Shown here one piece after another: positions 16,586 through 33,475 of a stretch of 37,653 bases of DNA (position 1 is the stretch's first letter; the number at the start of each line of letters is the position of its first letter). The position numbers were made by a program, and so were the translations under genes. The DNA is from Candidatus Aenigmatarchaeota archaeon (lineage in GTDB: Archaea; Aenigmatarchaeota; Aenigmatarchaeia; GW2011-AR5): contig JBBSYB010000014.1 of the NCBI GenBank assembly GCA_038045465.1, positions 1 through 37,653 on the forward strand, written 5' to 3'. The notes below the pieces were generated by a model that searched no databases, was not told where the DNA came from, and saw only the letters and a list, made by a program, of their open reading frames with translations.

Positions 16586-16741
16586 TGGGTTCGAGGAGAT
16601 TTGAACTCCTGTCTCAAGGTACATCGCACCTTCTTTGGTACTTTCCGAAAAGAAAGGTGTCCCGAACCTCGGATCCTGACCATTCTAGAGCCTTCTTTCC
16701 GCAAGAGCTACGACGAAATGGCTTAGCTAGACTACGAACCC
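16586..16741 (-). tRNA. tRNA-Pro (anticodon CGG) with two introns (D-loop and 37/38)
   Basis: Minus strand. Perfect 7-bp acceptor GGGTTCG/CGAACCC. T-arm AGGAG-TTCAAAT-CTCCT. Anticodon stem CGAGG/CCTTG with loop TT-CGG-GA after removing 16660..16621 (40 nt). The D-arm is only restored after removing about 42 nt (16726..16685). No encoded CCA. Hand-folded; boundaries +/- a few nt. Confidence 0.7.
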
Positions 16742-16767: not shown

Positions 16768-16777
16768 AATTATAAAT
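16768..16777 (-). promoter_or_regulatory. TATA box for the tRNA gene
   Basis: The minus strand reads atttataatt, centred about 32 nt upstream of the tRNA 5' end. Confidence 0.4.
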
Positions 16778-17544
16778 CAAACTTTTTGCACGAGAAAAAC
16801 AAAATCCCCGACTTTCGAGTTACTGAACCTATTGTCTTTCGGCCATAGTTTTGTTGTTCTTATTATTTTTAAGCCTACTGAGGCTAAATCTTTGACAATT
16901 CGCTGATATGAGACCTTGTACTCGTCCAGTCTTATGGATGATAAATATATTTCATTGTAGAGTCCAAATATTTGGTGTGAATCAAGTTTTTCATTTTTCA
17001 TCATTTCTGGAATGCGCTTTGCATAAAACTCCGTCCCGCTTCGAGCTGCTTCCGAAGGATTTTTGAAGGGAGCAATAGCCTTTTCGTAGACGATTAGAAT
17101 CCCTTCTGACTCCATGTGCGAGCGTATGTTTAACAAAAACTCGCGCTTTGTTACATCCTTTATATGATGATATGCAGACGTCGCAATAACTATATCGAAT
17201 TTATCGTTCAGCTTTACTGTACTTGCATCATGCAGAATAAACTCCGAAGTTTTCATCTTAGAATTTTCTATTGCGTATTTGAGGAAGTGTTTGTTTATGT
17301 CGACCCCTGTGTATGAAAATGAAATATCCAAACGAGAAAGCCATTTTCTAAGGAATATACCAGTTCCGCAACACATATCAAGTATTTTTACATATTTTTT
17401 TCCTTTACAGAAAGATTTTACGTGCTTTAACACTTCTGAGAAGTTTTCCGCTTCTATTTTTGTGCTCACGTATCTGTCATAAATTACTGGCGACATTTCA
17501 TAGAGATTTTGACGTACCACCATACAACCGCCCTCATCTTGCAT
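16777..17544 (-). CDS. class I SAM-dependent methyltransferase
   Basis: ILDMCCGTGIFLRKW (motif I) and DIVIATSAYHHI (motif post-II/III). The start could be the internal Met at 17523. Confidence 0.7.
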   Translation of the reverse strand: MQDEGGCMVVRQNLYEMSPVIYDRYVSTKIEAENFSEVLKHVKSFCKGKKYVKILDMCCGTGIFLRKWLSRLDISFSYTGVDINKHFLKYAIENSKMKTSEFILHDASTVKLNDKFDIVIATSAYHHIKDVTKREFLLNIRSHMESEGILIVYEKAIAPFKNPSEAARSGTEFYAKRIPEMMKNEKLDSHQIFGLYNEIYLSSIRLDEYKVSYQRIVKDLASVGLKIIRTTKLWPKDNRFSNSKVGDFVFLVQKV

Positions 17545-17586
17545 TCGTTCTGCGCGGAGCCTATTACATGCAAACAGCTGCGAGCA

Positions 17587-17994
17587 CTAATAGTCCAAAG
17601 GCTTTATCGTTTTAATTCCTTTTATGTCTTCAAAATGCGAATCGTTTGTTATGATTGCATCTATGAACTTTTCTTTCATTACAGCAACAAAAACAGTGTC
17701 AAAATAGTTTGCTTCATATGAAGAGAATATGGAAAGTGCATCAATTTCATGTTCTTTTACAACATCTTCTATATCCATTGGCAAAGCCAGCAGAAGCTCA
17801 GCGACATTGGTAGCGATTTTCCTGTTTACATTTCTGTCAATAACTTCCACAACTTCCGCTACGTTCAACACGGATGTAGTAGCTTCTAGTTTTCTTGATT
17901 CGATATCCTCTATTATTTTTTTACACGCCTTCCCGAATTTAGGGTGTGCTTGTGCCGCATAGATAAAGATGTTCGAATCGATAAAAGCTCTCAT
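17587..17994 (-). CDS. vapC: PIN-domain toxin (VapC)
   Basis: MRAFIDSNIFIYAA N-terminus, ...DTVFVAVM..., ...ITNDSHF. 4-nt overlap with the upstream antitoxin. Confidence 0.75.
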   Translation of the reverse strand: MRAFIDSNIFIYAAQAHPKFGKACKKIIEDIESRKLEATTSVLNVAEVVEVIDRNVNRKIATNVAELLLALPMDIEDVVKEHEIDALSIFSSYEANYFDTVFVAVMKEKFIDAIITNDSHFEDIKGIKTIKPLDY

Positions 17995-18236
17995 TCTCTA
18001 CTACTCCTTATCTTGTGCACTGCTTCTACTGCATCGCCTTTGAACTTTGCAGAGCCGTAGAGCTTTGCCGATATGTTTTCTATTTTTTTTGCTGCTAGTA
18101 GTTCGATACCGGTTTCTCTTGGTATCAAAGACACTTTGGAGCCACGCTTCACTCCATACACATCCCGAAGCTTTTTCGGTATTGTTATCTGATACTTGTC
18201 AGTCACCTTAGTTTGGTATACCATTCTTACCACCAT
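17991..18236 (-). CDS. vapB: AbrB/SpoVT-type antitoxin (VapB)
   Basis: TKVTDKYQITIPKKLRDVYGVKRGSKV is a swapped-hairpin AbrB motif. An alternative start is at 18224. Confidence 0.7.
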   Translation of the reverse strand: MVVRMVYQTKVTDKYQITIPKKLRDVYGVKRGSKVSLIPRETGIELLAAKKIENISAKLYGSAKFKGDAVEAVHKIRSSRE

Positions 18237-18273
18237 ACCAAATTATACACAACAAACTATAAAAAGATTTCTA

Positions 18274-18313
18274 GAACCAAACAAGCATAGCACAGCTACG
18301 AGCCCTAACGAAT
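18274..18313. repeat. R-repeat copy R1 (5'-truncated)
   Basis: gaaccaaacaag...agctacgagccctaacgaat. The final 20 nt are identical to R2. Confidence 0.65.
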
Positions 18314-18360
18314 GAATAATTGGATTGTATGTATAAGAATTTAAGAGCTAAATAATCACT

Positions 18361-18879
18361 ATGAAAAAATACGTATTCAAAAAATATGACTCTAATTACA
18401 GACGATTCTTTTCCTCTGAAAAGAGAAAGATACAGAAAATAATCGGATCGAAGGCATTGATAGAGCATGTTGGAAGTACTGCTATTCCTAAACTCAGAGG
18501 TAAAGGTATTGTGGACATTCTTTTGGTAGTCCAGAAAAATACAATTGCAAATACATCAAAAAAGCTCCAAAAAGCTGACTATGAGTTCAGAGATGTTGCA
18601 AGCACAAAGTCAAGGTGTTTCTTCCGAAAAGACTACAAAACTTCTAATGGTATTAGGAGAGTACACATTCACCTAACGTTTATAGGAAGTAAAGATCAAA
18701 AGGAAATGATAGGGTTTCGTGATTATATTATTTCTCATCCGAAAATGGCAAAAAAGTATGAGAAGATAAAAAAGGACGCTGTGAAATTTGCGAAAGGCGA
18801 GGGAGAACTATACAGGAAGCAGAAAGAAAAATTTATTCTCGGCATTATTAAGAAAGCTCTGGAGAATAATCAAGAATAA
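18361..18879 (+). CDS. GrpB-family protein
   Basis: IEHVGSTAIPKLRGKGIVDILLVV and RVHIHL...FRDYI..HP....Y..IK match the GrpB pattern. Confidence 0.7.
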   Translation: MKKYVFKKYDSNYRRFFSSEKRKIQKIIGSKALIEHVGSTAIPKLRGKGIVDILLVVQKNTIANTSKKLQKADYEFRDVASTKSRCFFRKDYKTSNGIRRVHIHLTFIGSKDQKEMIGFRDYIISHPKMAKKYEKIKKDAVKFAKGEGELYRKQKEKFILGIIKKALENNQE

Positions 18880-18913
18880 ACAACTACCAGAAATTATTCG
18901 TAGATTACAAATA

Positions 18914-18957
18914 GCCCGCACATGACCAAACCATCGGACAAACACAACTACGAACCC
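18914..18957. repeat. R-repeat copy R3
   Basis: gcccgcacatgaccaaaccatcggacaaacacaactacgaaccc. By hand count, 31/44 ungapped identities to R2. The last 11 nt are identical to 16731-16741 (complement of the tRNA 5' end). Confidence 0.6.
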
Positions 18958-18990
18958 AATTGGTATACTGATCAATTCGATTGATGTATT

Positions 18991-19022
18991 AGGCTGATAA
19001 ATTTTAGCAGCTTTATCAGCCT
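18991..19022. repeat. perfect 11-bp inverted repeat (hairpin or binding site)
   Basis: aggctgataaa (18991-19001) and tttatcagcct (19012-19022), with a 10-nt spacer. Confidence 0.6.
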
Positions 19023-19078
19023 AACTGATAAGATTTTTAATTCAATTCAAGCATTATTGTTCATTTGAAATGAATGAA

Positions 19079-19111
19079 TTTGTTCATTACTAATGAACAA
19101 ACTTTATATAC
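19079..19111 (+). promoter_or_regulatory. 23-nt palindrome abutting the TATA box of the DUF4143 ATPase gene
   Basis: tttgttcatta-c-taatgaacaaa (19079-19101) is immediately followed by ctttatatac (19102-19111). ATG at 19133. An extra half-site ttgttcatt lies at 19058-19066. Confidence 0.5.
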
Positions 19112-19132
19112 TTTTCTATTCAAATATCATGT

Positions 19133-20344
19133 ATGATTTTAAAGGAAGAACTAAGAGAAATAGTGAAGACCCAGCGCAAGTCTATACTGGAAAGCGAAGT
19201 TGGCGTGATGAGGGAGAAGACATCTGAAATGGACATTAGCATGCCATTTGCAATAGTTATATCTGGCATTAGAAGGTGTGGAAAAAGCACCGTGTTGCGC
19301 CAGTTGATTAAAAAGAAAGATAAGTTCTATTACTTTAATTTTGAGGACCCAAGAACAGCTTCATTTGAAGTGGTCGATTTTCAAAAACTTAAAGACGTGT
19401 TCACTGAAGAATTTGGCAAAGCTGATTGTTATTTCTTTGATGAAATACAGAATGTCCAAAAATGGGAGCTTTTCGTAAGACAGATGCTAGACCAAAAGAT
19501 GCATTTTGTTTTAACGGGATCGAACGCTTCCTTGCTAAGTAGGGAATTAGGCACAAGACTGACAGGCAGGCATCTTAGATACGAGTTATTTCCATTTTCA
19601 TTTAAGGAGTTTCTTGCATTTACAAAATCAAATCCGTCCATAAAATCGTTTGAAATTTATTTTAATAGCGGAGGTTTTCCGGAATATCTTAAACATAAAA
19701 ATGTCGAAATATTGAATGAGCTTCTGAACAACATAATTGCACGCGATATAGTAGTAAGATATAAGCTGCGCAATTCAAAACTTCTGAAAGAAATTGCAGT
19801 ATATATGCTTACAAACATTGGAAAAGAATTTTCTTACAATTCGCTGAAAAAAGTATTTGATCTAGGTTCCACCAACAGTGCAATATCTTTTATTTCTCAT
19901 TTTGAGGATAGTTATTTGATATTTACAATACCGAAATTTAGCCATTCAATGAAAAGTCAAATAAGAAATCCAAGAAAGATATATGCCATAGACAATGGAC
20001 TAGCTGCCGCAAATTCTGCATCTTTTTCAGGAGATACTGGAAGAATGCTGGAGAATTTGGTCTTTTTGCACCTAAGAAGAAAATACAAGGATATTTATTA
20101 TTTTAAAGAAAAGCACGAATGCGATTTCCTGATTAAAGAAAAAGGGAAAATAACCGGCGCATTTCAAGTATGCTTTGAATTAAATAGCGACAATAAAGAC
20201 CGCGAAATTAAAGGACTACAAGAGGCTCTTGAGATACTTAAGCTCGAGCAAGGCACGATATTAACGTTTAACCAAGAAGATGAATTATCAGTTGCAAACA
20301 AGAAAATTACAATAATGCCTGCCTGGAAGTGGTTGATAAGTTAA
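19133..20344 (+). CDS. AAA-family ATPase with DUF4143 C-terminal domain (AAA_14/DUF4143 type)
   Basis: Walker A ISGIRRCGKST, Walker B CYFFDEIQ, and the later YAIDNGLAAA motif typical of DUF4143 proteins. Confidence 0.7.
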   Translation: MILKEELREIVKTQRKSILESEVGVMREKTSEMDISMPFAIVISGIRRCGKSTVLRQLIKKKDKFYYFNFEDPRTASFEVVDFQKLKDVFTEEFGKADCYFFDEIQNVQKWELFVRQMLDQKMHFVLTGSNASLLSRELGTRLTGRHLRYELFPFSFKEFLAFTKSNPSIKSFEIYFNSGGFPEYLKHKNVEILNELLNNIIARDIVVRYKLRNSKLLKEIAVYMLTNIGKEFSYNSLKKVFDLGSTNSAISFISHFEDSYLIFTIPKFSHSMKSQIRNPRKIYAIDNGLAAANSASFSGDTGRMLENLVFLHLRRKYKDIYYFKEKHECDFLIKEKGKITGAFQVCFELNSDNKDREIKGLQEALEILKLEQGTILTFNQEDELSVANKKITIMPAWKWLIS

Positions 20345-20356
20345 AAATTTTAACAG

Positions 20357-20375
20357 GCTGCACAGTAACCACAGA
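20357..20375. repeat. partial extra copy of the R-repeat 5' part (R2')
   Basis: ggctgcacagtaaccacag compared with gcctgcacagaaccaaac at 20389. Confidence 0.4.
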
Positions 20376-20388
20376 AATCTTACGATTA

Positions 20389-20440
20389 GCCTGCACAGAA
20401 CCAAACAAGTAGCATAACAAAGCTACGAGCCCTAACGAAT
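20389..20440. repeat. R-repeat copy R2 (full length)
   Basis: gcctgcacagaaccaaacaagtagcataacaaagctacgagccctaacgaat. Contains a gtagc/gctac stem. Confidence 0.65.
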
Positions 20441-20533: not shown

Positions 20534-20800
20534 GTGCAAACCGACAGACGCCCAAGACGTCAACCTGCTATAGACTTCACCAAGGAAATCAAGCCAAGCA
20601 AGCACTTTAGGAATACGTGGCTTAGAAAATGGGATTGGGATATTAAACAGTTGCGGTCGGCACTAATGAATGCCAGGATAGATCATGTTGGAAAAAACAA
20701 ATACGAAGCTTACATACAAGATAAGAAAAGGAGCAGAAAAATAATTTTTGTGTATACGGGAAATGAGATTTTTATAATAACAGGAACTGAGGGAAAATGA
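20534..20800 (+). CDS. putative toxin, DUF4258-like (tentative)
   Basis: 88-aa ORF (GTG start) with SKHFRNTW... and C-terminal KIIFVYTGNEIFIITGTEG. 4-nt ATGA overlap with the downstream antitoxin-like gene. Confidence 0.4.
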   Translation: MQTDRRPRRQPAIDFTKEIKPSKHFRNTWLRKWDWDIKQLRSALMNARIDHVGKNKYEAYIQDKKRSRKIIFVYTGNEIFIITGTEGK

Positions 20801-21141
20801 CAAACAAAATATGTCCGGCATGTGAAAAAGGAGAATTGATAGAAGTAGACAACATAGTGTCTGAGCTGGATGGCTATGTGTTTATAGAAAAAGGTCAGCG
20901 TTGCACAGAATGTGGTGAAGAGTTTATACGCGAAAAAGACGCACAGCGCACAATCGAAGTCGCTAAAAAATTAGGTGTATGGCCTCAACCACTCAAGCTC
21001 CATAGAAGCTTGTCGAAAAGCGGTCGAGGACTAGTATTAAGAATACCAAGCGATCTCGAAAAAGACCTAAAATTAAAATCCGGAGAATCTGTAAGCATAA
21101 GCAAAGTCGGAAGCAGAATAATAATAGAGCCGGAGGATTGA
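20797..21141 (+). CDS. putative antitoxin: YgiT/MqsA-type zinc ribbon fused to an AbrB/SpoVT-like domain
   Basis: CPACEKGEL...CTECGEEF (4-Cys ribbon), then GRGLVLRIPSDLEKDLKLKSGESVSI. Confidence 0.5.
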   Translation: MTNKICPACEKGELIEVDNIVSELDGYVFIEKGQRCTECGEEFIREKDAQRTIEVAKKLGVWPQPLKLHRSLSKSGRGLVLRIPSDLEKDLKLKSGESVSISKVGSRIIIEPED

Positions 21142-21155
21142 ATTTCAAAGAGTCA

Positions 21156-23321
21156 CTATTCAGCGCTACTGAGGACTTCCTTGGCAACTTTTGGACCTAG
21201 CAGCTTTGCCAGCACGATTTCGTCTGCTTTCTTGATATCAACGGGCGTGCGGATTCCAGCGTTGAATAGTTTTCTTGCTCTTGCTCTTCCTATGCCTTTC
21301 AGGGTCACAAGCTTGAGGAGCTCTTCCTTTACACCATGCTTGACCTGCAGACGCACTTTGTTTATGTTGTTTGCTATTTCCTTTATTCCCAACAACATGG
21401 CTAATTCGCTCGCTGAGTATAATAGCCATTCAGCGTTTGTTGTTTTATTGTATAATTCGCCTGGGGTCACGCCGTATTTTTCAAGTATTACATCCTCGCC
21501 AGATTCACTGGTCCATTCTTTGATAAGCAAAGCTGTCTTGAATTCACTCAAAAAGTCTTCATATTCCACATCCCATACATCAGGTGCCTCTATGTCAGAT
21601 TTCGAAAGCTCATCTTCTATATCCTCATACTCTTTTTTCTTTACGCTGAGAAGCGGATACATTTCAGTGCACTGGCAGATCATCATCAGACTTTGGATAG
21701 GTGTGTCATCTTCGGTCATCAAACCTAGTATAAGATTTGCCGAAACGGGATCCAGGTATAACTCGCTTACACGCTTGCCGAGCTTTGTCGCATGCAGCTC
21801 AACATCCTGGGTAAGCTGAAAAGCCGGCATGAATTCCTTTGATATAAATTCACCCTTATTTCCCACGATTATAAATTTGTAATTTTCCAGTTCGGTTATT
21901 ATGCGCTCTATTTTTCCTTTAATACTTTCGATATCGCCGTATTGTTTGGCAAAAAAAGTCCGCATAAAGAATGTTTCAAGCTCGCCTCTTGTTTTAACAT
22001 AGCCTGAAGAAATGAGGGATAAAATGTAAACCCGCAGAACACGCTCCACACCTAGCTTTGAATAAATGGGTTCTGCATCGCCACTTATGTAACGCTCCCA
22101 GAGTGCTTTTGCCTCACTTTTGCTTTTGGCAAGGAGTATTGCCTCGCCTTCTGTATCGTACTTAGGCCTACCTGCACGTCCCATGCATTGATGAATGTCT
22201 ATCACCGGAATATAGGACATGCCGTAGCTTCCGTTAAATCGTTTTGTATCCCTAATAACGACACGATACGCGGGTAAATTCATGCCATATGCTAATGTAG
22301 TTGTGGCTGCCAAAACCTTCAGCAGACCGGAGCGAAACGCGTCCTCGATAAGCTTGCGCTGTTTGCTCACTAAACCAGCGTGATGGAAAGCTGTACCGCC
22401 TTCAACTATGCGGGCGAGACGACGGCATTGCTTTGTCGGATTGCTGAGAACATTCTCAATGTCATTCGCCAATTTTTTTAGTCGATCACGCTCACCTACG
22501 GCCAGAGCTTTTTTCAGATCCTTGGAGAGCTTTTCCGCCACAGACTCCGCACTTCTCCTGGTTGATACAAACATGAGTGTTTGCTTTTCCTTTTTAGTTG
22601 TGTCAAGGCAGATAGCTGTTTCTATATCAGCTTCAAGTGGAATTGTGCTCTTGCGTCCGGAAAATTCTAGCTTGTAATTTTCATTGTCAGGGTACATTAC
22701 ACCCTTGTGCAACTTAACGGGACGGTAATCGCTTTTTACAAGCTGGGCATCGAGCCACTCGGCAATTTCTTTAGCATTTTCTATGGTTGCAGAAAGCGCG
22801 ACTATCTGCGCTCTTGTTATGCCTGCTAATTGCGTCAGCACTACCTCCAGGGTCGGCCCGCGTGTTGGGTCGTCAATAAGGTGAATCTCGTCGGAAACAA
22901 TCAGGGCAATGTCCTTGGTCCATGGCACGCCGTGGCGCAACAATGAATCCATTTTTTCGTTGCTGAGAATTATCAGATCATAGCTGCCGAGCCAGCCGTC
23001 GCTGCTGTCCAGGTCGCCAGTGGAAACGCCGACGCGCATGCCTATCTTCTTGTACTTGCTGAAATCCTCGTACTTCTCTGATGCGAGAGCTTTGAGCGGC
23101 ACAAGATAAACGCTTTTCTTACCTTCCAAATAATTTTTTAATATGGCCATCTCGGCGATCAATGTTTTGCCAGAGGCTGTGGGCGACGCTATTACCATAT
23201 TTTTTCCGTCAAGAAGACCTTTTTTAATAGCGGCAACCTGCGGTGGGTTGAGCTGCTCTATACCGCCCTGTTTAAGCAGCGCAATGAGTTTTTGCGGCAG
23301 TGGGAGTTTTTCAAGAAGCAT
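21156..23321 (-). CDS. hel308: Ski2-like DNA helicase Hel308
   Basis: Motif I ASPTASGKT, motif II SDEIH, HHAGL, GMNLPA, QCMGRAGR, and C-terminal HhH GIGRARARKL. The ORF-track start 23327 is GTG; ATG at 23321. Confidence 0.85.
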   Translation of the reverse strand: MLLEKLPLPQKLIALLKQGGIEQLNPPQVAAIKKGLLDGKNMVIASPTASGKTLIAEMAILKNYLEGKKSVYLVPLKALASEKYEDFSKYKKIGMRVGVSTGDLDSSDGWLGSYDLIILSNEKMDSLLRHGVPWTKDIALIVSDEIHLIDDPTRGPTLEVVLTQLAGITRAQIVALSATIENAKEIAEWLDAQLVKSDYRPVKLHKGVMYPDNENYKLEFSGRKSTIPLEADIETAICLDTTKKEKQTLMFVSTRRSAESVAEKLSKDLKKALAVGERDRLKKLANDIENVLSNPTKQCRRLARIVEGGTAFHHAGLVSKQRKLIEDAFRSGLLKVLAATTTLAYGMNLPAYRVVIRDTKRFNGSYGMSYIPVIDIHQCMGRAGRPKYDTEGEAILLAKSKSEAKALWERYISGDAEPIYSKLGVERVLRVYILSLISSGYVKTRGELETFFMRTFFAKQYGDIESIKGKIERIITELENYKFIIVGNKGEFISKEFMPAFQLTQDVELHATKLGKRVSELYLDPVSANLILGLMTEDDTPIQSLMMICQCTEMYPLLSVKKKEYEDIEDELSKSDIEAPDVWDVEYEDFLSEFKTALLIKEWTSESGEDVILEKYGVTPGELYNKTTNAEWLLYSASELAMLLGIKEIANNINKVRLQVKHGVKEELLKLVTLKGIGRARARKLFNAGIRTPVDIKKADEIVLAKLLGPKVAKEVLSSAE

Positions 23322-23345
23322 AAACACAAATCACCATCTAAAGAC

Positions 23346-27806: not shown

Positions 27807-30800
27807 ATGGTAGATAATGTAAAAACGAAAAAGGGAACCAAACTTAGGGGAGCCCTTTACAGAAAATTGCATAGCAAAAAAACTGTTATAAACGGAACCC
27901 GTGCAGGCCAGATGCTATTATGCATGCGAAAAACCGAGGAACCTAAGTTCAGGTTTGAGCCGATGAAATCCCTTATCACATTACCGCGGCCTTCTGACAT
28001 AAAAATAAGCGGTATTGTTTATCCTCTGATAAAACCCTATTCTTATGCCAATATACATTACGACGCCAAGGAAGGTGCTGTAGTATACGATATTATCGAG
28101 CCAAAGCTCAACGAAAAGGAAATATTCATACTCAAAAAGGTTTATGATGGCTTGGTGCAGATAATAGATATTACCCTATCGGACATAAAGGAAAAGGAAA
28201 AGATGATTGTATTCCTTGAAAAGAGCGTTACCCGTCTTCTGGATGAATATGAGATTAAGGTAAGCGAAAAGGAATACGTAAAGATAATGTATTATATTTT
28301 TCGCGACCTGGTTGGCCTCAACCGTATAGAGTCGCTTCTCAATGACCCATACATCGAAGACATAGGATGTGATGGAACAGGAATAGCAATCTATGTTGTG
28401 CACCAGAAGTTTGGTTCTGTGAAGACAAACATTGTTTACCATGAAATCAAAGAGCTGCGCGAATTTGTCACGAAACTCGCGGAAAGATGCGATAGATACA
28501 TCAGCTATGCGGATCCACTACTGGATGGTTCGCTACCGGACGGAACTCGAGTACAGGCATCGCTGGCCAGCGACGTAACTACGCGCGGGCCTACATTCTC
28601 AATAAGAAAGTTCCGCGAAGAGCCAATTTCTCCAGTGGACATGATACGGCTCAATACAGTCTCGGCTGAAATGCTCGCTTATCTATGGTTCTTGATAGAG
28701 AACGACATCAACATACTGATAGCAGGAGGCGTAGCAACTGGCAAAACCAGCCTATTGAACAGCATATCATTTTTCATTCCACCCGAGGCAAAGATAGTCT
28801 CAATTGAGGACAGTGTTACCGGCGACGCGGAAATGCTGATTAAAAGAAACGGAATTGCCGAACTTGTAAAGATAGGCGACCTTGTGGACGAGATGATAAA
28901 CAAGTATGGAAGAGACAAAGAGCACGGCGAAAACAAAGAAGGTATAGAAGTCCTTACCATGGATAAAAACTGCAAAATAGAATTCCAGAAACCCTCTGCA
29001 TTCATACGCCACCTGGTAAACAAAGATATTTATGAAGTTACAACAGCCACAGGCAAAAAAGTAAAGGTCACAAAAGACCATTCTTTATTCGGTCTGGATG
29101 ATTATGGAAACGTGATAGAGGCAAAACCCGAAGACCTGGAAAAAATCAAATTCATCGCAACACCACGCTGCATACCTTACGAAGGGAGTGAAATAACAGA
29201 AATAAATCTGATTGAGCATCTCGACAAACTTAGTGGAGAGTTTCTTACAGGTGCACCTATTTCACGAATTTTTGAAATCCCTTACGACGAATTCAAAAAG
29301 ATAGGCGTTGACAAAGGCAAATACGCATGGTGGAAAAGAAAATCAATGGTATCAACGGACGTTTTTGCGCAATTATCCAACAAAACCACATTTACTAGGG
29401 ACGAAATTGAGCAGATAAGAATAATTGGAAAAAGATCATGCGTTTCTATGCCTGTAATTTTCCCAATAAACGACAACTTTCTCAACTTCTTGGGCTTATG
29501 GGTTGGCGACGGTTGTTATGACAGCAGAAATAAAAACAGGGTAATCATTTCGAACATTGACAAGGAATGCATAGAAGCAGTTAGAAGGCTCGCAGCTTCT
29601 CTAAATATAAACGTAAGCCTGATGTCTGATAACGTTTCAATGAGCCTCAATTCCACCTTGCTGTACAAAGTCATGAAAAACGTCCTCGGCTTTGACGGAC
29701 ATGCGGATACAAAGCGCATACCCACCTTTATACAAAACACATCTAACGGGCAGATATCTGAGTTCTTGAAAGGCTACTTCTCTGCTGACGGAACCGTTAA
29801 AAATTACGAAGCTTCATGTTCGTCACAGAGCCTCGGGTTGCTCAATGATATCCAGACGCTTTTGCTGAGATTTGGCATTATATCAAGAATTTCTCACTAT
29901 ACAAGAAAGGACAAATGCAGAGATCTTTCTATATCATCCAGCGAAAATATATCAAAGTTCAGGCGTATAGGATTCCTTCAGGAAAGGAAGTCCTCAAAAA
30001 TAGAAATACTGGCTAGTAGGCATTCGCACCATACTAAAACAGATATAATTCCGCTCGGCGGAGAACTTGCGGCAGAGATAAATCAGTACCAAAAATTATC
30101 TTTCCCTTACATGAATGGAATGCAGAACATTGGAAGACAATACCTGCAAACTATTGTACGCGACTGCGAGTCCCAGATGCTTCATCAGCTCGCAGAGTCA
30201 GATATATTCTGGGACAAAGTAAGAGATGTAAGAATAATGCCAAGTGAGGAAATTTATGTTTATGATCTTAGCGTTCCGGAGAATGAAAGCTTCGTGTGCT
30301 CGAATATAATCCTCCACAATACACGCGAACTAAACCTGCCGCACGAAAACTGGATACCTGGCGTTGCGCGAACAGGCTTTACTGGCACAGGCGTCGGCGA
30401 GGTCACGATGTTCGAGCTACTGAGAGAGTCATTTAGACAAAACCCGGACTACCTGATAGTCGGAGAAATAAGAGGCAAGGAAGCCTATGTCATGTTCCAA
30501 GGTATGGCGTCTGGTCATCCGTCTATCTCAACTATCCACGCTGGCGGCGTCGAAGATCTCATGAAAAGACTGCAAACAAAACCCATAAGTCTTTCTGTCG
30601 GCCTGATAGAAAGCTTGGACATGGTAATAGTTATGATACACGCGCGCGAGAAAGGAAAGTCAGCGCGACGCGTGAAGGAAATTGTCGAGATAGAAAGCAT
30701 AGACATCAATACAGGCGCCCCGCACAGCGTAAAGTCATTTGTGTGGATACCAGCTGAGGATATCTATGAGTACAGGTCAAATTCGTGGCTGCTTAACAAG

Positions 30801-30995
30801 GTCTCTACGGAGAAAGGAATACCTATGAGCGTCATAGTCAGCGAGATAGCGAAAAGGAAAAAAGTTTTGATATGGATGCTTGAAAACAACATAACGAACA
30901 TGAAAGATATTGCAAAGTACGTAAGCCTTTGTCATCAAAGCCCTGAAAAGATGGCAAGGATTTTGGCAGGCGAAAAAATGCTGGGCGACGAATAA
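27807..30995 (+). CDS. FlaI/VirB11-family (T2SSE) secretion ATPase, intein-containing precursor
   Basis: Walker A IAGGVATGKTS, Walker B/Asp box IVSIED...TRELN (split by the intein), His box GHPSISTIHAG. N-terminal YPLIKPYSYANIHYD...YDIIEPKL is typical of FlaI. The extein sum is 559 aa. Confidence 0.8.
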   Translation: MVDNVKTKKGTKLRGALYRKLHSKKTVINGTRAGQMLLCMRKTEEPKFRFEPMKSLITLPRPSDIKISGIVYPLIKPYSYANIHYDAKEGAVVYDIIEPKLNEKEIFILKKVYDGLVQIIDITLSDIKEKEKMIVFLEKSVTRLLDEYEIKVSEKEYVKIMYYIFRDLVGLNRIESLLNDPYIEDIGCDGTGIAIYVVHQKFGSVKTNIVYHEIKELREFVTKLAERCDRYISYADPLLDGSLPDGTRVQASLASDVTTRGPTFSIRKFREEPISPVDMIRLNTVSAEMLAYLWFLIENDINILIAGGVATGKTSLLNSISFFIPPEAKIVSIEDSVTGDAEMLIKRNGIAELVKIGDLVDEMINKYGRDKEHGENKEGIEVLTMDKNCKIEFQKPSAFIRHLVNKDIYEVTTATGKKVKVTKDHSLFGLDDYGNVIEAKPEDLEKIKFIATPRCIPYEGSEITEINLIEHLDKLSGEFLTGAPISRIFEIPYDEFKKIGVDKGKYAWWKRKSMVSTDVFAQLSNKTTFTRDEIEQIRIIGKRSCVSMPVIFPINDNFLNFLGLWVGDGCYDSRNKNRVIISNIDKECIEAVRRLAASLNINVSLMSDNVSMSLNSTLLYKVMKNVLGFDGHADTKRIPTFIQNTSNGQISEFLKGYFSADGTVKNYEASCSSQSLGLLNDIQTLLLRFGIISRISHYTRKDKCRDLSISSSENISKFRRIGFLQERKSSKIEILASRHSHHTKTDIIPLGGELAAEINQYQKLSFPYMNGMQNIGRQYLQTIVRDCESQMLHQLAESDIFWDKVRDVRIMPSEEIYVYDLSVPENESFVCSNIILHNTRELNLPHENWIPGVARTGFTGTGVGEVTMFELLRESFRQNPDYLIVGEIRGKEAYVMFQGMASGHPSISTIHAGGVEDLMKRLQTKPISLSVGLIESLDMVIVMIHAREKGKSARRVKEIVEIESIDINTGAPHSVKSFVWIPAEDIYEYRSNSWLLNKVSTEKGIPMSVIVSEIAKRKKVLIWMLENNITNMKDIAKYVSLCHQSPEKMARILAGEKMLGDE
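28812..30320 (+). mobile_element. intein (503 aa) with LAGLIDADG homing-endonuclease domain
   Basis: Ser1 (SVTGDAEM), block B TKDHSLF, LAGLIDADG motifs LGLWVGDGCYD and LKGYFSADGTV, block F VYDLSVPENESF, block G ILHN followed by Thr+1. Confidence 0.8.
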
Positions 30996-31049
30996 GCCCT
31001 TTTGGAAAAAGCGCTTGCGGAAAAATAACAAGAAGCCCTTTTGGAAAAA
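30996..31049. repeat. bipartite hairpin element, copy A, with 17-nt direct duplication
   Basis: aagcccttttggaaaaa occurs at 30994-31010 and 31033-31049. aaagcgcttgcggaaaa (31008-31024) is identical to 33454-33470. Confidence 0.6.
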
Positions 31050-33433: not shown

Positions 33434-33475
33434 GCCCTTTTCTTTGGGAAAGAAAAGCGCTTGCGGAAAAGAAAC
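33434..33475. repeat. bipartite hairpin element, copy B (most complete)
   Basis: Begins at the base after TAA. 9-bp stem cttttcttt-ggg-aaagaaaag (33437-33457), mini-stem cgc-tt-gcg, tail gaaaagaaac. Confidence 0.65.

What the first reader, a model, noticed from the sequence alone, without database searches (positions are those of the whole stretch)
18274..20440. Second repeat family (R1, R3, R2', R2) that reads like a tRNA 5' end on the minus strand and brackets single-gene cassettes
Seen: R3 (18914-18957) and R2 (20389-20440) align without gaps at 31/44 positions by hand count. R1 (18274-18313) matches R2 over gaaccaaacaag and the terminal 20 nt agctacgagccctaacgaat. A partial extra 5' part lies at 20357-20375. 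On the minus strand all copies begin GGG(C/T)TCGTAG(C/T)T, like an archaeal tRNA acceptor/D-arm start. R3 shares 11 nt (actacgaaccc) with the real tRNA-Pro 5' end at 16731-16741, but no D- or T-arm follows. The layout is: tRNA | MTase-VapCB | R1 | grpB | R3 | DUF4143 ATPase | R2' R2 | TA pair. Inference: these could be remnants of serial site-specific integrations next to a tRNA gene, cassette boundaries of an integron-like array, or a family of short minus-strand RNAs; R1 is followed on that strand by TCTTTTTAT. No recombinase gene is present in the window.
Basis: partly seen in the sequence, partly recalled or inferred. Interest (0 to 1): 0.65.

Follow-up and report, generated by a model that had tools for sequence, protein, structure and literature searches.

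The report
tRNA-like repeats bounding archaeal gene cassettes
The repeats belong to a roughly 90-base family found across a group of tiny DPANN archaea (Aenigmatarchaeota); it copies the promoter and first ~20 bases of a tRNA gene and marks the borders of small swappable accessory-gene cassettes stacked upstream of a tRNA-Pro gene, an integron-like layout with no recombinase found.

Summary
All hand counts reproduce, and GGGYTCGTAGYT occurs 4 times, all on the minus strand, against 0.29 expected. The units are larger than described. R2 is a full ~89-nt element (20344-20432), and R2' is its 3' part. R3 carries an internal deletion. R1 is cut after nt ~35. A fourth, degenerate copy (R0, 17504-17587) was missed.

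The same element occurs in Aenigmatarchaeota-type archaeal MAGs: 94 profile hits, 74 distinct copies. It always forms same-orientation arrays with 0.5-1.9 kb spacing and 1-2 genes per interval. At least 13 arrays end at an intron-containing tRNA-Pro (once tRNA-Arg) in the same orientation.

Each window cassette (vapBC, grpB, DUF4143, a TA pair) recurs in other genomes with different neighbours. In 25 element pairs the cargo is shared on one side only, never on both.

No attC-like hairpin, conserved RNA fold, tRNA body or recombinase gene was found.

Best reading: these are tRNA-5'-derived recombination junctions of a cassette island built at a tRNA gene, with the recombinase acting in trans. 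The recombinase and the exact crossover point are not identified. I rate it a new variant of a known kind, of moderate-to-high interest.

The parts
16587..16741 (-). tRNA-Pro(CGG) with two introns: a ~41-44-nt insert in the D-loop and a 40-nt canonical intron. It is the 3'-terminal anchor of the array.
   Evidence: Acceptor and T-arm scan. ARAGORN calls tRNA-Pro(cgg) after in-silico removal of the D-loop insert. The orthologue in L031 lacks the D-loop insert.
16777..17500 (-). Cassette 1 cargo: a SAM-dependent methyltransferase. The true start is probably downstream of the 17544 ATG, which lies inside R0.
   Evidence: Pfam Methyltransf_25/31/11. R0 overlaps the ORF start.
17504..17587 (-).
   Evidence: nhmmer model positions 3-88, E about 1e-5.
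17587..18236 (-). Cassette 2 cargo: vapC (PIN, 17587-17994) and vapB (MazE-type, 17991-18236).
   Evidence: Pfam. The same cassette with the same truncated element occurs in L023/L040 and L044 at 78-86% identity.
18272..18305 (-). R1: the 5' module only (model positions 1-37), fused to a short 'C-type' 3' module (TAGAAAnC..) and the vapBC promoter region.
   Evidence: nhmmer E about 5e-5. Identical junction in L023, L044 and L030.
18361..18879 (+). Cassette 3 cargo: grpB.
   Evidence: Pfam GrpB 1.5e-34. Found at 83-84% identity in L032 and L035 with other neighbours.
18896..18957 (-). R3: an element copy with an internal deletion. Its first 11 nt equal the 5' end of the tRNA-Pro.
   Evidence: nhmmer model positions 1-62, E about 1e-7. 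The 11-nt identity is confirmed.
19133..20344 (+). Cassette 4 cargo: an AAA_14/DUF4143 ATPase.
   Evidence: Pfam. 93.5% identical over 1445 nt to L048, between different neighbouring cassettes.
20344..20432 (-). R2: a full-length element, 5' module plus A-type 3' module.
   Evidence: nhmmer model positions 1-89, E 5e-18 to 1e-17.
20534..21141 (+). Cassette 5 cargo (distal): an 88-aa plus 114-aa pair, the second with a MazE/AbrB-like C-terminus. It abuts the core gene Hel308 (21156-23327, minus strand).
   Evidence: Pfam. The same pair lies between elements in L005, L011, L016, L028 and L053 at 78-86% identity.

Best explanation
The repeats are copies of a ~90-nt DNA element, described below on the minus strand. 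It has three parts.

1. A promoter-like upstream stretch.
2. A strongly conserved 5' module of ~35 nt, GGGCTCGTAGCTGTGCTTGGCTGnTGGTTTGGTTC. Its first 20 nt mimic the 5' end of tRNA-Arg(TCG) and tRNA-Pro of the same lineage.
3. One of several alternative 3' modules.

The elements act as recombination junctions. They delimit small accessory-gene cassettes of one or two genes, mostly toxin-antitoxin and defence-type, in a hypervariable island. That island grows upstream of, and in the same orientation as, a tRNA-Pro gene.

Proposed mechanism (inferred). A site-specific recombinase encoded elsewhere recombines an element-like site on incoming DNA with the 5' part of the tRNA gene or with a resident element. 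It is most likely tyrosine-type, because the apparent core TTGGTT(C) is 6-7 bp long. Each event leaves a displaced pseudo-tRNA 5' fragment in front of the new cassette, which produces a head-to-tail array that ends at the real tRNA. The same exchanges can change the tRNA's own 5' end and leave extra D-arm introns.

Shown: the family, its array architecture, the tRNA anchor, the independent assortment of cassettes, and hybrid and module-swapped copies.

Inferred: that recombination is site-specific, where the crossover lies, and that a trans-acting recombinase exists.
For: 1. Family and distribution. The pattern scan finds 24 matches in 21 loci of GTDB genomes. All but one are archaeal MAGs of Aenigmatarchaeota/AR5 type. 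It finds 29 metagenome loci and none in viral contigs. The profile search gives 94 hits, or 74 distinct copies.

2. Array architecture. There are 27 loci with more than one copy, and none has mixed orientation. Spacing is 496-1935 bp, median 786. Of 34 distinct intervals, 15 hold one ORF, 15 hold two and 3 hold three.

3. tRNA anchor. An intron-bearing tRNA-Pro (tRNA-Arg in L008) lies just 3' of the array, in the same orientation, in the window and in L005, L006, L008, L009, L010, L015, L018, L020, L022, L031, L032, L041 and L049.

4. tRNA origin. The element's first 20 nt match tRNA-Arg(TCG) of AR5 at 18-19 of 20 positions and tRNA-Pro at 16 of 20. The regions upstream of elements resemble genuine tRNA-Pro promoters. 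A TATA-like motif lies at -40..-23 in 27/65 copies, against 3/65 at -22..-5.

5. Junction behaviour.
- Every window cassette recurs in other genomes with other neighbours.
- 12 element pairs share only upstream cargo, 13 share only downstream cargo, and none shares both.
- Identity between elements is no higher within a genome than between genomes.

6. Recombinant forms.
- 12 copies end at model positions 34-37 and carry one of at least two alternative 3' modules.
- Copies with a replaced 5' end keep everything from about position 16-25 onward.
- L023 5608 has TTGGTTC duplicated at the junction.
- L023 2173 has a true tRNA-Pro 5' 20 nt fused to the rest of the element.
- The L031 1366-1503 tRNA-Pro has a C4.A69 acceptor mismatch.

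7. Island signature. GC is 0.33-0.38 in the island against 0.42-0.46 in the flanks. The core flank is 84% identical to L031, and Hel308 is 85% identical to L040, yet the arrays differ.

8. Precedent. A 5' tRNA fragment 1.8 kb upstream of a tRNA that gained an intron through integration of a recombinase-bearing element is described in PMC3293823.
Against: - No integrase, resolvase or other dedicated recombinase was found in the window or in about 60 related loci (Pfam and PHROGs; motif regex on 378 ORFs).
- No circular cassette contig was found, and no viral or plasmid-borne copy.
- The element's 5' module could not serve as a functional tRNA 5' part. The D-stem is changed, A14 is lost and there is an 11-12-nt insertion. 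Integrating a typical element into the tRNA at the proposed core would therefore damage the tRNA.
- The 'hot spot' after position 35 may only mark where element subfamilies stop being homologous.
- Elements next to the same cargo are much more diverged than the cargo (68% against 95% for R2/L048). Co-inheritance with upstream or downstream cargo cannot be told apart (p=0.66), so the crossover point is unresolved.
- Some arrays (L007, L023, L035) show no tRNA at their end in the sequence held.
Confidence: 0.55

Rival explanations
1. Passive scars plus homologous recombination. The elements are decaying duplicates of tRNA 5' regions left by old integrations. Cassette shuffling happens by ordinary homologous recombination or gene conversion between these dispersed ~35-nt identical stretches, for instance after DNA uptake. 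No dedicated recombinase acts on them.
For: - No recombinase was found anywhere near the arrays.
- Breakpoints vary: 5'-truncated, 3'-truncated and hybrid copies.
- Positions 4 and 11 (C/T) assort independently.
- Elements sometimes resemble each other when upstream cargo is shared and sometimes when downstream cargo is shared.
Against: - The elements share a consensus that differs from every real tRNA, and that consensus is kept across many species. The 5' module is about 83% identical between random pairs. Independently decaying scars should not behave this way.
- There is no concerted evolution within genomes.
- 35 nt is short for efficient homologous recombination.
- Orientation is strictly uniform in 27/27 multi-copy loci.
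- 12 copies break within a 4-nt interval.
Confidence: 0.25
2. Small RNA genes. Each element is transcribed from its tRNA-type promoter into a ~90-nt RNA that works as a regulator, an antitoxin or a guide. The arrays exist because this RNA gene accompanies accessory genes.
For: - TATA-like motif at tRNA-promoter distance in 27/65 copies.
- Strict strand consistency.
- Conserved 5' 'handle' with a variable 3' part.
- Small hairpin at nt 8-23 with a few one-sided changes.
- B-type copies can close a long terminal stem, -12.4 kcal/mol.
Against: - The consensus fold of the main type is only -3.6 kcal/mol with one compensatory pair.
- Typical members fold no better than shuffles.
- No Rfam match even at E<=10.
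- No tRNA body or 3' acceptor strand downstream.
- The variable part shows no excess complementarity to its own flanks: 8.9 nt against 8.7 nt in controls.
- Many copies are truncated or degenerate, and most cargo genes are antisense to the element, 37 against 17.
Confidence: 0.12
3. Canonical integron. The elements are attC sites recombined by an IntI integrase, as reported for some archaeal MAGs.
For: Arrays of short cassettes separated by 60-140-nt repeats, with cargo rich in toxin-antitoxin genes, as in integrons. CALIN-type arrays without IntI are common in archaeal MAGs (PMC9668308).
Against: - No attC-like imperfect palindrome. Single-strand DNA folds have z about 0 to +1 for typical members on both strands.
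- There is no conserved GTTRRRY/RYYYAAC pair.
- Cargo orientation is mixed.
- No IntI was found.
- The element sequence is absent from the supplementary data of the archaeal integron paper, whose Aenigmatarchaeota case is from another order.
Confidence: 0.03

Closest known systems
tRNA 5'-fragment plus intron gain by integration of a mobile element at a tRNA gene (Caldiarchaeum subterraneum tRNA-Thr locus, PMC3293823)
   Same: - A 5' tRNA fragment lies upstream of, and in the same orientation as, the intact tRNA, with inserted DNA between them.
- The reconstituted tRNA carries an extra D-arm intron that a close relative lacks. Here that is the window tRNA-Pro against its L031 orthologue.
- Later recombination scatters the fragments.
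   Different: - That case is a single 1.8-kb insert encoding a putative recombinase, and its fragment is identical to the tRNA.
- Here there are arrays of up to 5 or more cassettes with no recombinase.
- Here the repeats have their own consensus, distinct from any tRNA, and it is shared across many species.
Islands built by successive integrations at one tRNA gene (tycheposons of Prochlorococcus, bioRxiv 10.1101/2020.12.28.424599; bacterial tRNA-linked genomic islands)
   Same: - A tRNA-anchored hypervariable island.
- New arrivals push older ones away from the tRNA.
- Partial tRNA repeats are scattered through the island.
- Cargo is adaptive or defence-related.
   Different: - Those elements carry integrases and replication genes, are several kb long, and have att sites that are exact tRNA segments, as far as I know usually the 3' part.
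- Here the units are 0.5-1.9 kb with 1-2 genes and no integrase.
- Here the repeat covers the promoter and the 5' part.
Integrons and CALIN arrays, including archaeal ones (PMC9668308)
   Same: - Tandem arrays of one- or two-gene cassettes separated by a 60-140-nt repeat family with conserved ends and a variable middle.
- Cargo rich in toxin-antitoxin genes.
- Arrays often lack an adjacent integrase.
- An IS110/IS1111-type insertion sequence targets the repeat, as IS1111-attC elements do by my own knowledge.
   Different: - No attC hairpin and no R/L boxes.
- No IntI and no attI next to an integrase gene.
- Cassettes have mixed orientation and their own promoters.
- The repeat is tRNA-derived and the array ends at a tRNA gene.
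Split or tri-split tRNA half genes of Nanoarchaeum and Caldivirga (own knowledge; cf. PMC2237900)
   Same: Separately encoded, promoter-bearing sequences that begin like a tRNA 5' end, in a DPANN archaeon rich in tRNA introns.
   Different: - The elements lack a D-stem, an anticodon arm and a complementary partner.
- They number at least 7 per genome, all with the same acceptor sequence.
- They are not detectable with tRNA models.

Membership tests
Integron (IntI / attI / attC) | attC folds as an imperfect single-stranded hairpin with paired R''/R' and L''/L' boxes (RYYYAAC ... GTTRRRY) | tested here: not met
   DNA folds of 5 elements on both strands: typical members have z = 0 to +1, and the window copies z = -1.9 to -2.6 without a shared structure. 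No conserved GTTRRRY or RYYYAAC in the alignments.
Integron (IntI / attI / attC) | IntI tyrosine recombinase gene next to the array (may be absent in CALINs) | tested here: not met
   No Phage_integrase or IntI hit in the window or in related loci. A regex for Tyr-recombinase boxes found none in 378 ORFs. Only up to 13 kb per locus was available.
Integron (IntI / attI / attC) | Tandem array of short cassettes, one repeat per cassette | tested here: met
   27 multi-copy loci, spacing 0.5-1.9 kb, 1-2 ORFs in 30 of 34 intervals.
att repeats of tRNA-targeting integrative elements (pNOB8 / SSV / tycheposon type) | Intact tRNA gene at one end of the inserted DNA, with partial tRNA copies as direct repeats in the same orientation | tested here: met
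   A tRNA-Pro or tRNA-Arg lies at the 3' end of at least 13 arrays, always in the same orientation.
att repeats of tRNA-targeting integrative elements (pNOB8 / SSV / tycheposon type) | The repeat is a copy of a segment of the target tRNA | tested here: inconclusive
   Only the first ~20 nt match: 18-19/20 to tRNA-Arg(TCG), 16/20 to tRNA-Pro, and 11 nt exactly for R3. The remainder has its own consensus with weak similarity to D-arm introns. One hybrid copy (L023 2173) carries the true tRNA-Pro 5' 20 nt.
att repeats of tRNA-targeting integrative elements (pNOB8 / SSV / tycheposon type) | Integrase gene, whole or split, inside the inserted DNA | tested here: not met
   46 distinct cassette ORFs and their flanking ORFs were scanned. 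Hits were TA, Fic, GrpB, DUF4143, RNase_T, APH and similar families, with no integrase.
Split tRNA 5'-half genes | Canonical acceptor, D and anticodon arms up to the split point, plus a complementary 3'-half partner | tested here: not met
   No D-stem. The Rfam tRNA model gives no hit at E<=10. No 3' acceptor strand within 420 nt. No opposite-strand or complementary partner in the held loci. A genome-wide search for partners was not possible.
MITE / REP-type dispersed repeats | Terminal inverted repeats, target-site duplications, and either orientation at scattered intergenic sites | tested here: not met
   Uniform orientation in 27 of 27 multi-copy loci. A-type copies have no terminal inverted repeats. 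Copies are confined to arrays.

The most novel reading that the evidence does not exclude
Aenigmatarchaeota (DPANN) have an integron-like gene-capture platform. Its recombination site is derived from the promoter-proximal 5' part of tRNA-Pro/Arg genes, and its recombinase is unrecognised and acts in trans. As a by-product, the system remodels the anchoring tRNA genes through 5'-end swaps, extra D-arm introns and pseudo-tRNA fragments. That would give a live mechanism for how multi-intron and fragmented tRNA genes arise in DPANN archaea.
Probability: 0.3. Interest if true: 0.8.

Novelty: new variant of a known kind. Interest (0 to 1): 0.62.

Why it matters
DPANN archaea have tiny genomes, and how they exchange accessory and defence genes is poorly understood. 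This family marks a compact, recognisable cassette platform. It is present at 7 or more copies per genome in several species, carries mainly toxin-antitoxin and defence-type genes, and sits at tRNA genes.

If the elements are active recombination sites, three things follow:
- They define a gene-capture system that is integron-like in architecture but built from a tRNA 5' region.
- They point to an unidentified recombinase.
- They link cassette traffic to the gain of tRNA introns and tRNA fragments, an open question in archaeal tRNA evolution.

On the practical side, the element profile is a ready marker for variable islands in these MAGs. It also explains why assemblies break there.

Tried and rejected
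- attC-like hairpin: DNA folding of both strands shows no shared structure.
- Structured RNA: RNAalifold gives -3.6 kcal/mol and one compensatory pair. Rfam gives nothing, even at a relaxed threshold.
- Cis tRNA with long introns, or a split-tRNA half: there is no 3' acceptor strand or T-arm within 420 nt of any element, and no complementary partner in the held loci.
- Guide-RNA idea: the longest exact matches between each variable 3' module and its own +/-1.5-kb flanks are no longer than for modules from other loci, 8.9 against 8.7 nt.
- Virus- or plasmid-borne attP: no match in IMG/VR. No circular contigs among the held loci.
- Recombinase search: Pfam on about 130 ORFs, PHROGs on 10 ORFs with no Pfam hit, and a motif regex on 378 ORFs all came back negative. 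The alignment-based Pfam summary for 52 ORFs lists only the top 25 of 80 families, so a single weak hit there could have been hidden.
- Which side of the cargo the element travels with: no difference (Mann-Whitney p=0.66), so this stays inconclusive.
- Same sequence as published archaeal attCs: not found in the supplementary data of PMC9668308.
- Strain-level presence/absence: look-ups of identical proteins return only the same arrangement. However, contigs break at window 17164-17193 in four assemblies and at 20291-20320 in one sample. This is suggestive of heterogeneity but not decisive.
Full report
**1. Checking the observation**

- R3 against R2 gives 31/44 without gaps.
- R1 and R2 share GAACCAAACAAG and an identical terminal 20-mer.
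- R3 shares 11 nt with 16731-16741.
- Only 9 of 20000 random window pairs reach 31/44.

GGGYTCGTAGYT with at most one mismatch occurs 4 times, all on the minus strand between 16.7 and 20.4 kb, against 0.29 expected.

ARAGORN and Rfam report no tRNA in the window. A scan for a T-arm plus a matching acceptor stem finds one at 16587-16741 on the minus strand. After in-silico removal of a ~41-44-nt insert in the D-loop, ARAGORN calls tRNA-Pro(CGG) with a 40-nt canonical intron.

Pfam confirms the gene order: methyltransferase, VapC/VapB, GrpB, AAA_14/DUF4143 ATPase, an 88-aa plus 114-aa pair, then the core helicase Hel308. The island has 0.33-0.38 GC, against 0.42-0.46 around it.

**2. The repeats belong to a lineage-wide family and are longer than described**

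One pattern that matches all three window copies, ACCAAAN{5,16}ARCAMARCTACGARCCC, has zero chance expectation. Scans with it gave:
- 24 matches in 21 loci of the species-representative genomes. All but one likely chance hit are archaeal MAGs labelled Aenigmatarchaeota, AR5 or uncultured archaeon.
- 29 loci in JGI metagenomes.
- No match in viral contigs.

Aligned on the minus strand, the unit is about 90 nt: GGGCTCGTAGCTGTGCTTGGCTGnTGGTTTGGTTC TTTGCAGGCTAAT.GTAAGATG...GTGGTTG....G.GGCTAC.

A profile built from 18 copies finds 94 hits, or 74 distinct copies. Of these, 45 are full length, 12 end at model positions 34-37, and 9 lack the 5' end.

In the window:
- R2 is full length (20344-20432).
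- R3 (18896-18957) has an internal deletion.
- R1 (18272-18305) is only the 5' module.
- A fourth, degenerate copy, R0 (17504-17587), lies between vapC and the methyltransferase.

All five gene units of the island are therefore separated by an element. The last unit abuts the tRNA.

**3. Architecture**

- In 27 loci with more than one copy, orientation is never mixed. Spacing is 496-1935 bp, median 786.
- Of 34 distinct intervals, 15 hold one ORF, 15 hold two and 3 hold three. ORFs lie opposite to the element 37 times and on the same strand 17 times.
- An intron-bearing tRNA-Pro (tRNA-Arg(TCG) in AR5) lies immediately 3' of the array, in the same orientation, in the window and in at least 13 other distinct arrays.
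- Cargo is accessory or defence-like: PIN/VapBC, MazE, MazF/PemK, HicA/HicB-like, DUF2283, Fic (three species), GrpB, DUF4143, RNase_T-BRCT, APH, NYN, serpin, ADH, radical SAM, AAA_11/12 helicase-nuclease and insertion sequences.

**4. Relation to tRNA**

- The first 20 nt match tRNA-Arg(TCG) of AR5 at 18-19 of 20 positions and tRNA-Pro at 16 of 20.
- The 40 nt upstream of elements resemble genuine tRNA-Pro upstream regions. Compare the L015 tRNA with the L013 element.
- A TATA-like motif lies at -40..-23 in 27/65 copies, against 3/65 nearer the element.
- Beyond nt 20 the element departs from the tRNA. The D-stem is changed and there is an 11-12-nt insertion that looks like a duplication of the TTGG motif.
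- After that point it weakly resembles the D-arm introns of neighbouring tRNA-Pro genes: TTGCAGG..GGCTAT in L015.
- No tRNA body follows any element, and Rfam gives no hit even at E<=10.

**5. Evidence that the elements are recombination junctions**

BLAST of the island against all loci shows each window cassette on its own in other genomes, with other neighbours.

| Cassette | Found in | Identity |
|---|---|---|
| vapBC, with the same truncated element | L023/L040, L044 | 78-86% |
| grpB | L032, L035 | 83-84% |
| DUF4143 | L048 | 93.5% |
| 88+114-aa pair | L005, L011, L016, L028, L053 | 78-86% |

- The core flank left of the tRNA is 84% identical to L031, and Hel308 is 85% identical to L040. 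Both relatives carry different arrays.
- Among full-length elements from different contexts, 12 pairs share only the upstream 400 nt, 13 share only the downstream 400 nt, and none shares both.
- Elements within one genome are no more alike than elements from different genomes.

Recombinant forms exist:
- At least three alternative 3' modules (A, B, C) join the same 5' module right after GGTT(C).
- Copies with a replaced 5' end keep everything from about position 16-25 onward.
- One junction carries a TTGGTTC duplication.
- L023 2173 has the true tRNA-Pro 5' 20 nt fused to the rest of the element.
- A tRNA-Pro inside the L031 array has a C4.A69 mismatch, as if its 5' end had been exchanged.
- The window tRNA-Pro has a D-loop insert that its L031 orthologue lacks. 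That insert contains TCGTAGCT, the core of the element's 5' module.

**6. What it is not**

- Not attC. Typical members fold no better than shuffled sequence on either strand, and there are no R-box motifs.
- Not a clearly structured RNA. The consensus fold is -3.6 kcal/mol with one compensatory pair. Only the B-type variant closes a longer stem, -12.4 kcal/mol across 8 similar sequences.
- Not a guide-like RNA. There is no excess complementarity to its own flanks.
- No recombinase was found in the window, among cassette ORFs, among flanking ORFs, or by a motif regex on 378 ORFs.
- No circular contigs were found.

**7. Interpretation**

The best-supported reading is that the elements are tRNA-5'-derived recombination junctions of a cassette island built at a tRNA gene.

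This follows the logic described for a Caldiarchaeum tRNA-Thr locus. There, integration of a recombinase-bearing element left a 5' tRNA fragment upstream and added a D-arm intron to the tRNA (PMC3293823). It also follows the logic of tRNA-anchored islands that grow by successive integrations (tycheposons).

This case differs in three ways:
- The units are integron-sized cassettes without integrases.
- The repeat has its own conserved consensus across species.
- The repeat covers the promoter-proximal 5' part of the tRNA.

I propose a trans-acting, probably tyrosine-type recombinase with a core near TTGGTT(C). This step is inferred. The crossover point could not be fixed, because elements next to the same cargo are far more diverged than the cargo, and co-inheritance with either side is statistically indistinguishable.

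Plain homologous recombination between the conserved 5' modules is the main rival. A small-RNA function is a minor rival.

**8. Novelty and score**

Integration scars at tRNA genes and integron-like arrays are both known, and archaeal integrons with canonical attC sites have been reported (PMC9668308). I found no description of this element or of tRNA-5'-like repeats bounding single-gene cassettes in DPANN archaea. The literature search was limited to open-access text.

I rate it a new variant of a known kind, interest 0.62.

Noticed in passing
L016 569-1822 (also L025 about 1581-1620): An IS110-family transposase gene with 15-bp subterminal inverted repeats (ATGATAAAATCCGCC / GGCGGATTTTATCAT) is inserted exactly between the promoter-like upstream region and position 1 of an element. 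The same IS right end abuts an element in a second genome. The element's 5' junction therefore seems to be a specific target for this IS, much as IS1111 targets attC.
   Followed up: partly
window 16696-16708 (-), 31011-31023 (+), 33457-33469 (+); L041 3272-3281: The motif GCKCTTGCGGAAA occurs 3 times in the window against 0.15 expected: once inside the D-loop intron of the tRNA-Pro and twice in intergenic spacers of the pilus/archaellum-like operon. It also occurs in a tRNA-Pro intron of another genome.
   Followed up: partly
window 17164-17193 and 20291-20320: Contigs from four other assemblies of the same population break with 30-nt overlaps inside the methyltransferase cassette. In one sample they also break just before the 3' end of the DUF4143 gene next to R2. 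This suggests strain heterogeneity in the island.
   Followed up: partly
L031 1366-1503: A second tRNA-Pro-like gene lies inside the array. It has a D-arm intron, an unusual AGG anticodon reading and a C4.A69 acceptor mismatch. It is either a pseudo-tRNA or a tRNA whose 5' end was swapped by recombination.
   Followed up: partly
L023 3950-4074, L009 6566-6690, L025, L028, L029, L032, L048: There is an alternative 'B-type' 3' module of ~75 nt, CCCTTAAAACAGCCCTAGAACTAGCGTTTTCAGCAGAAATAAGCATGTTTCCGAGCAT, conserved in several genomes. Its end is a degenerate inverted copy of the element's 5' module and can close a long stem (-12.4 kcal/mol).
   Followed up: partly
L011 about 2330-2447: A ~110-nt hairpin-rich insertion, possibly a MITE, interrupts an element between its GTAATCC and GTGGTCTAG parts.
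   Followed up: no
window 27807-30995 (+): A T2SSE-type secretion/pilus ATPase gene carries an intein with a LAGLIDADG homing endonuclease domain, according to the Pfam list attached to the identical-protein contig.
   Followed up: no
window 17544 (ORF 16777-17544, -): The longest methyltransferase ORF starts inside element R0. The real start is probably one of the ATGs a few codons downstream.
   Followed up: no
L015 228-3173, L037 894-2765, L046 2849-5164: A large AAA_11/AAA_12 helicase fused to a DUF559/MTES_1575 nuclease domain is a recurrent cargo directly next to elements in three genomes. It is probably a defence gene.
   Followed up: no
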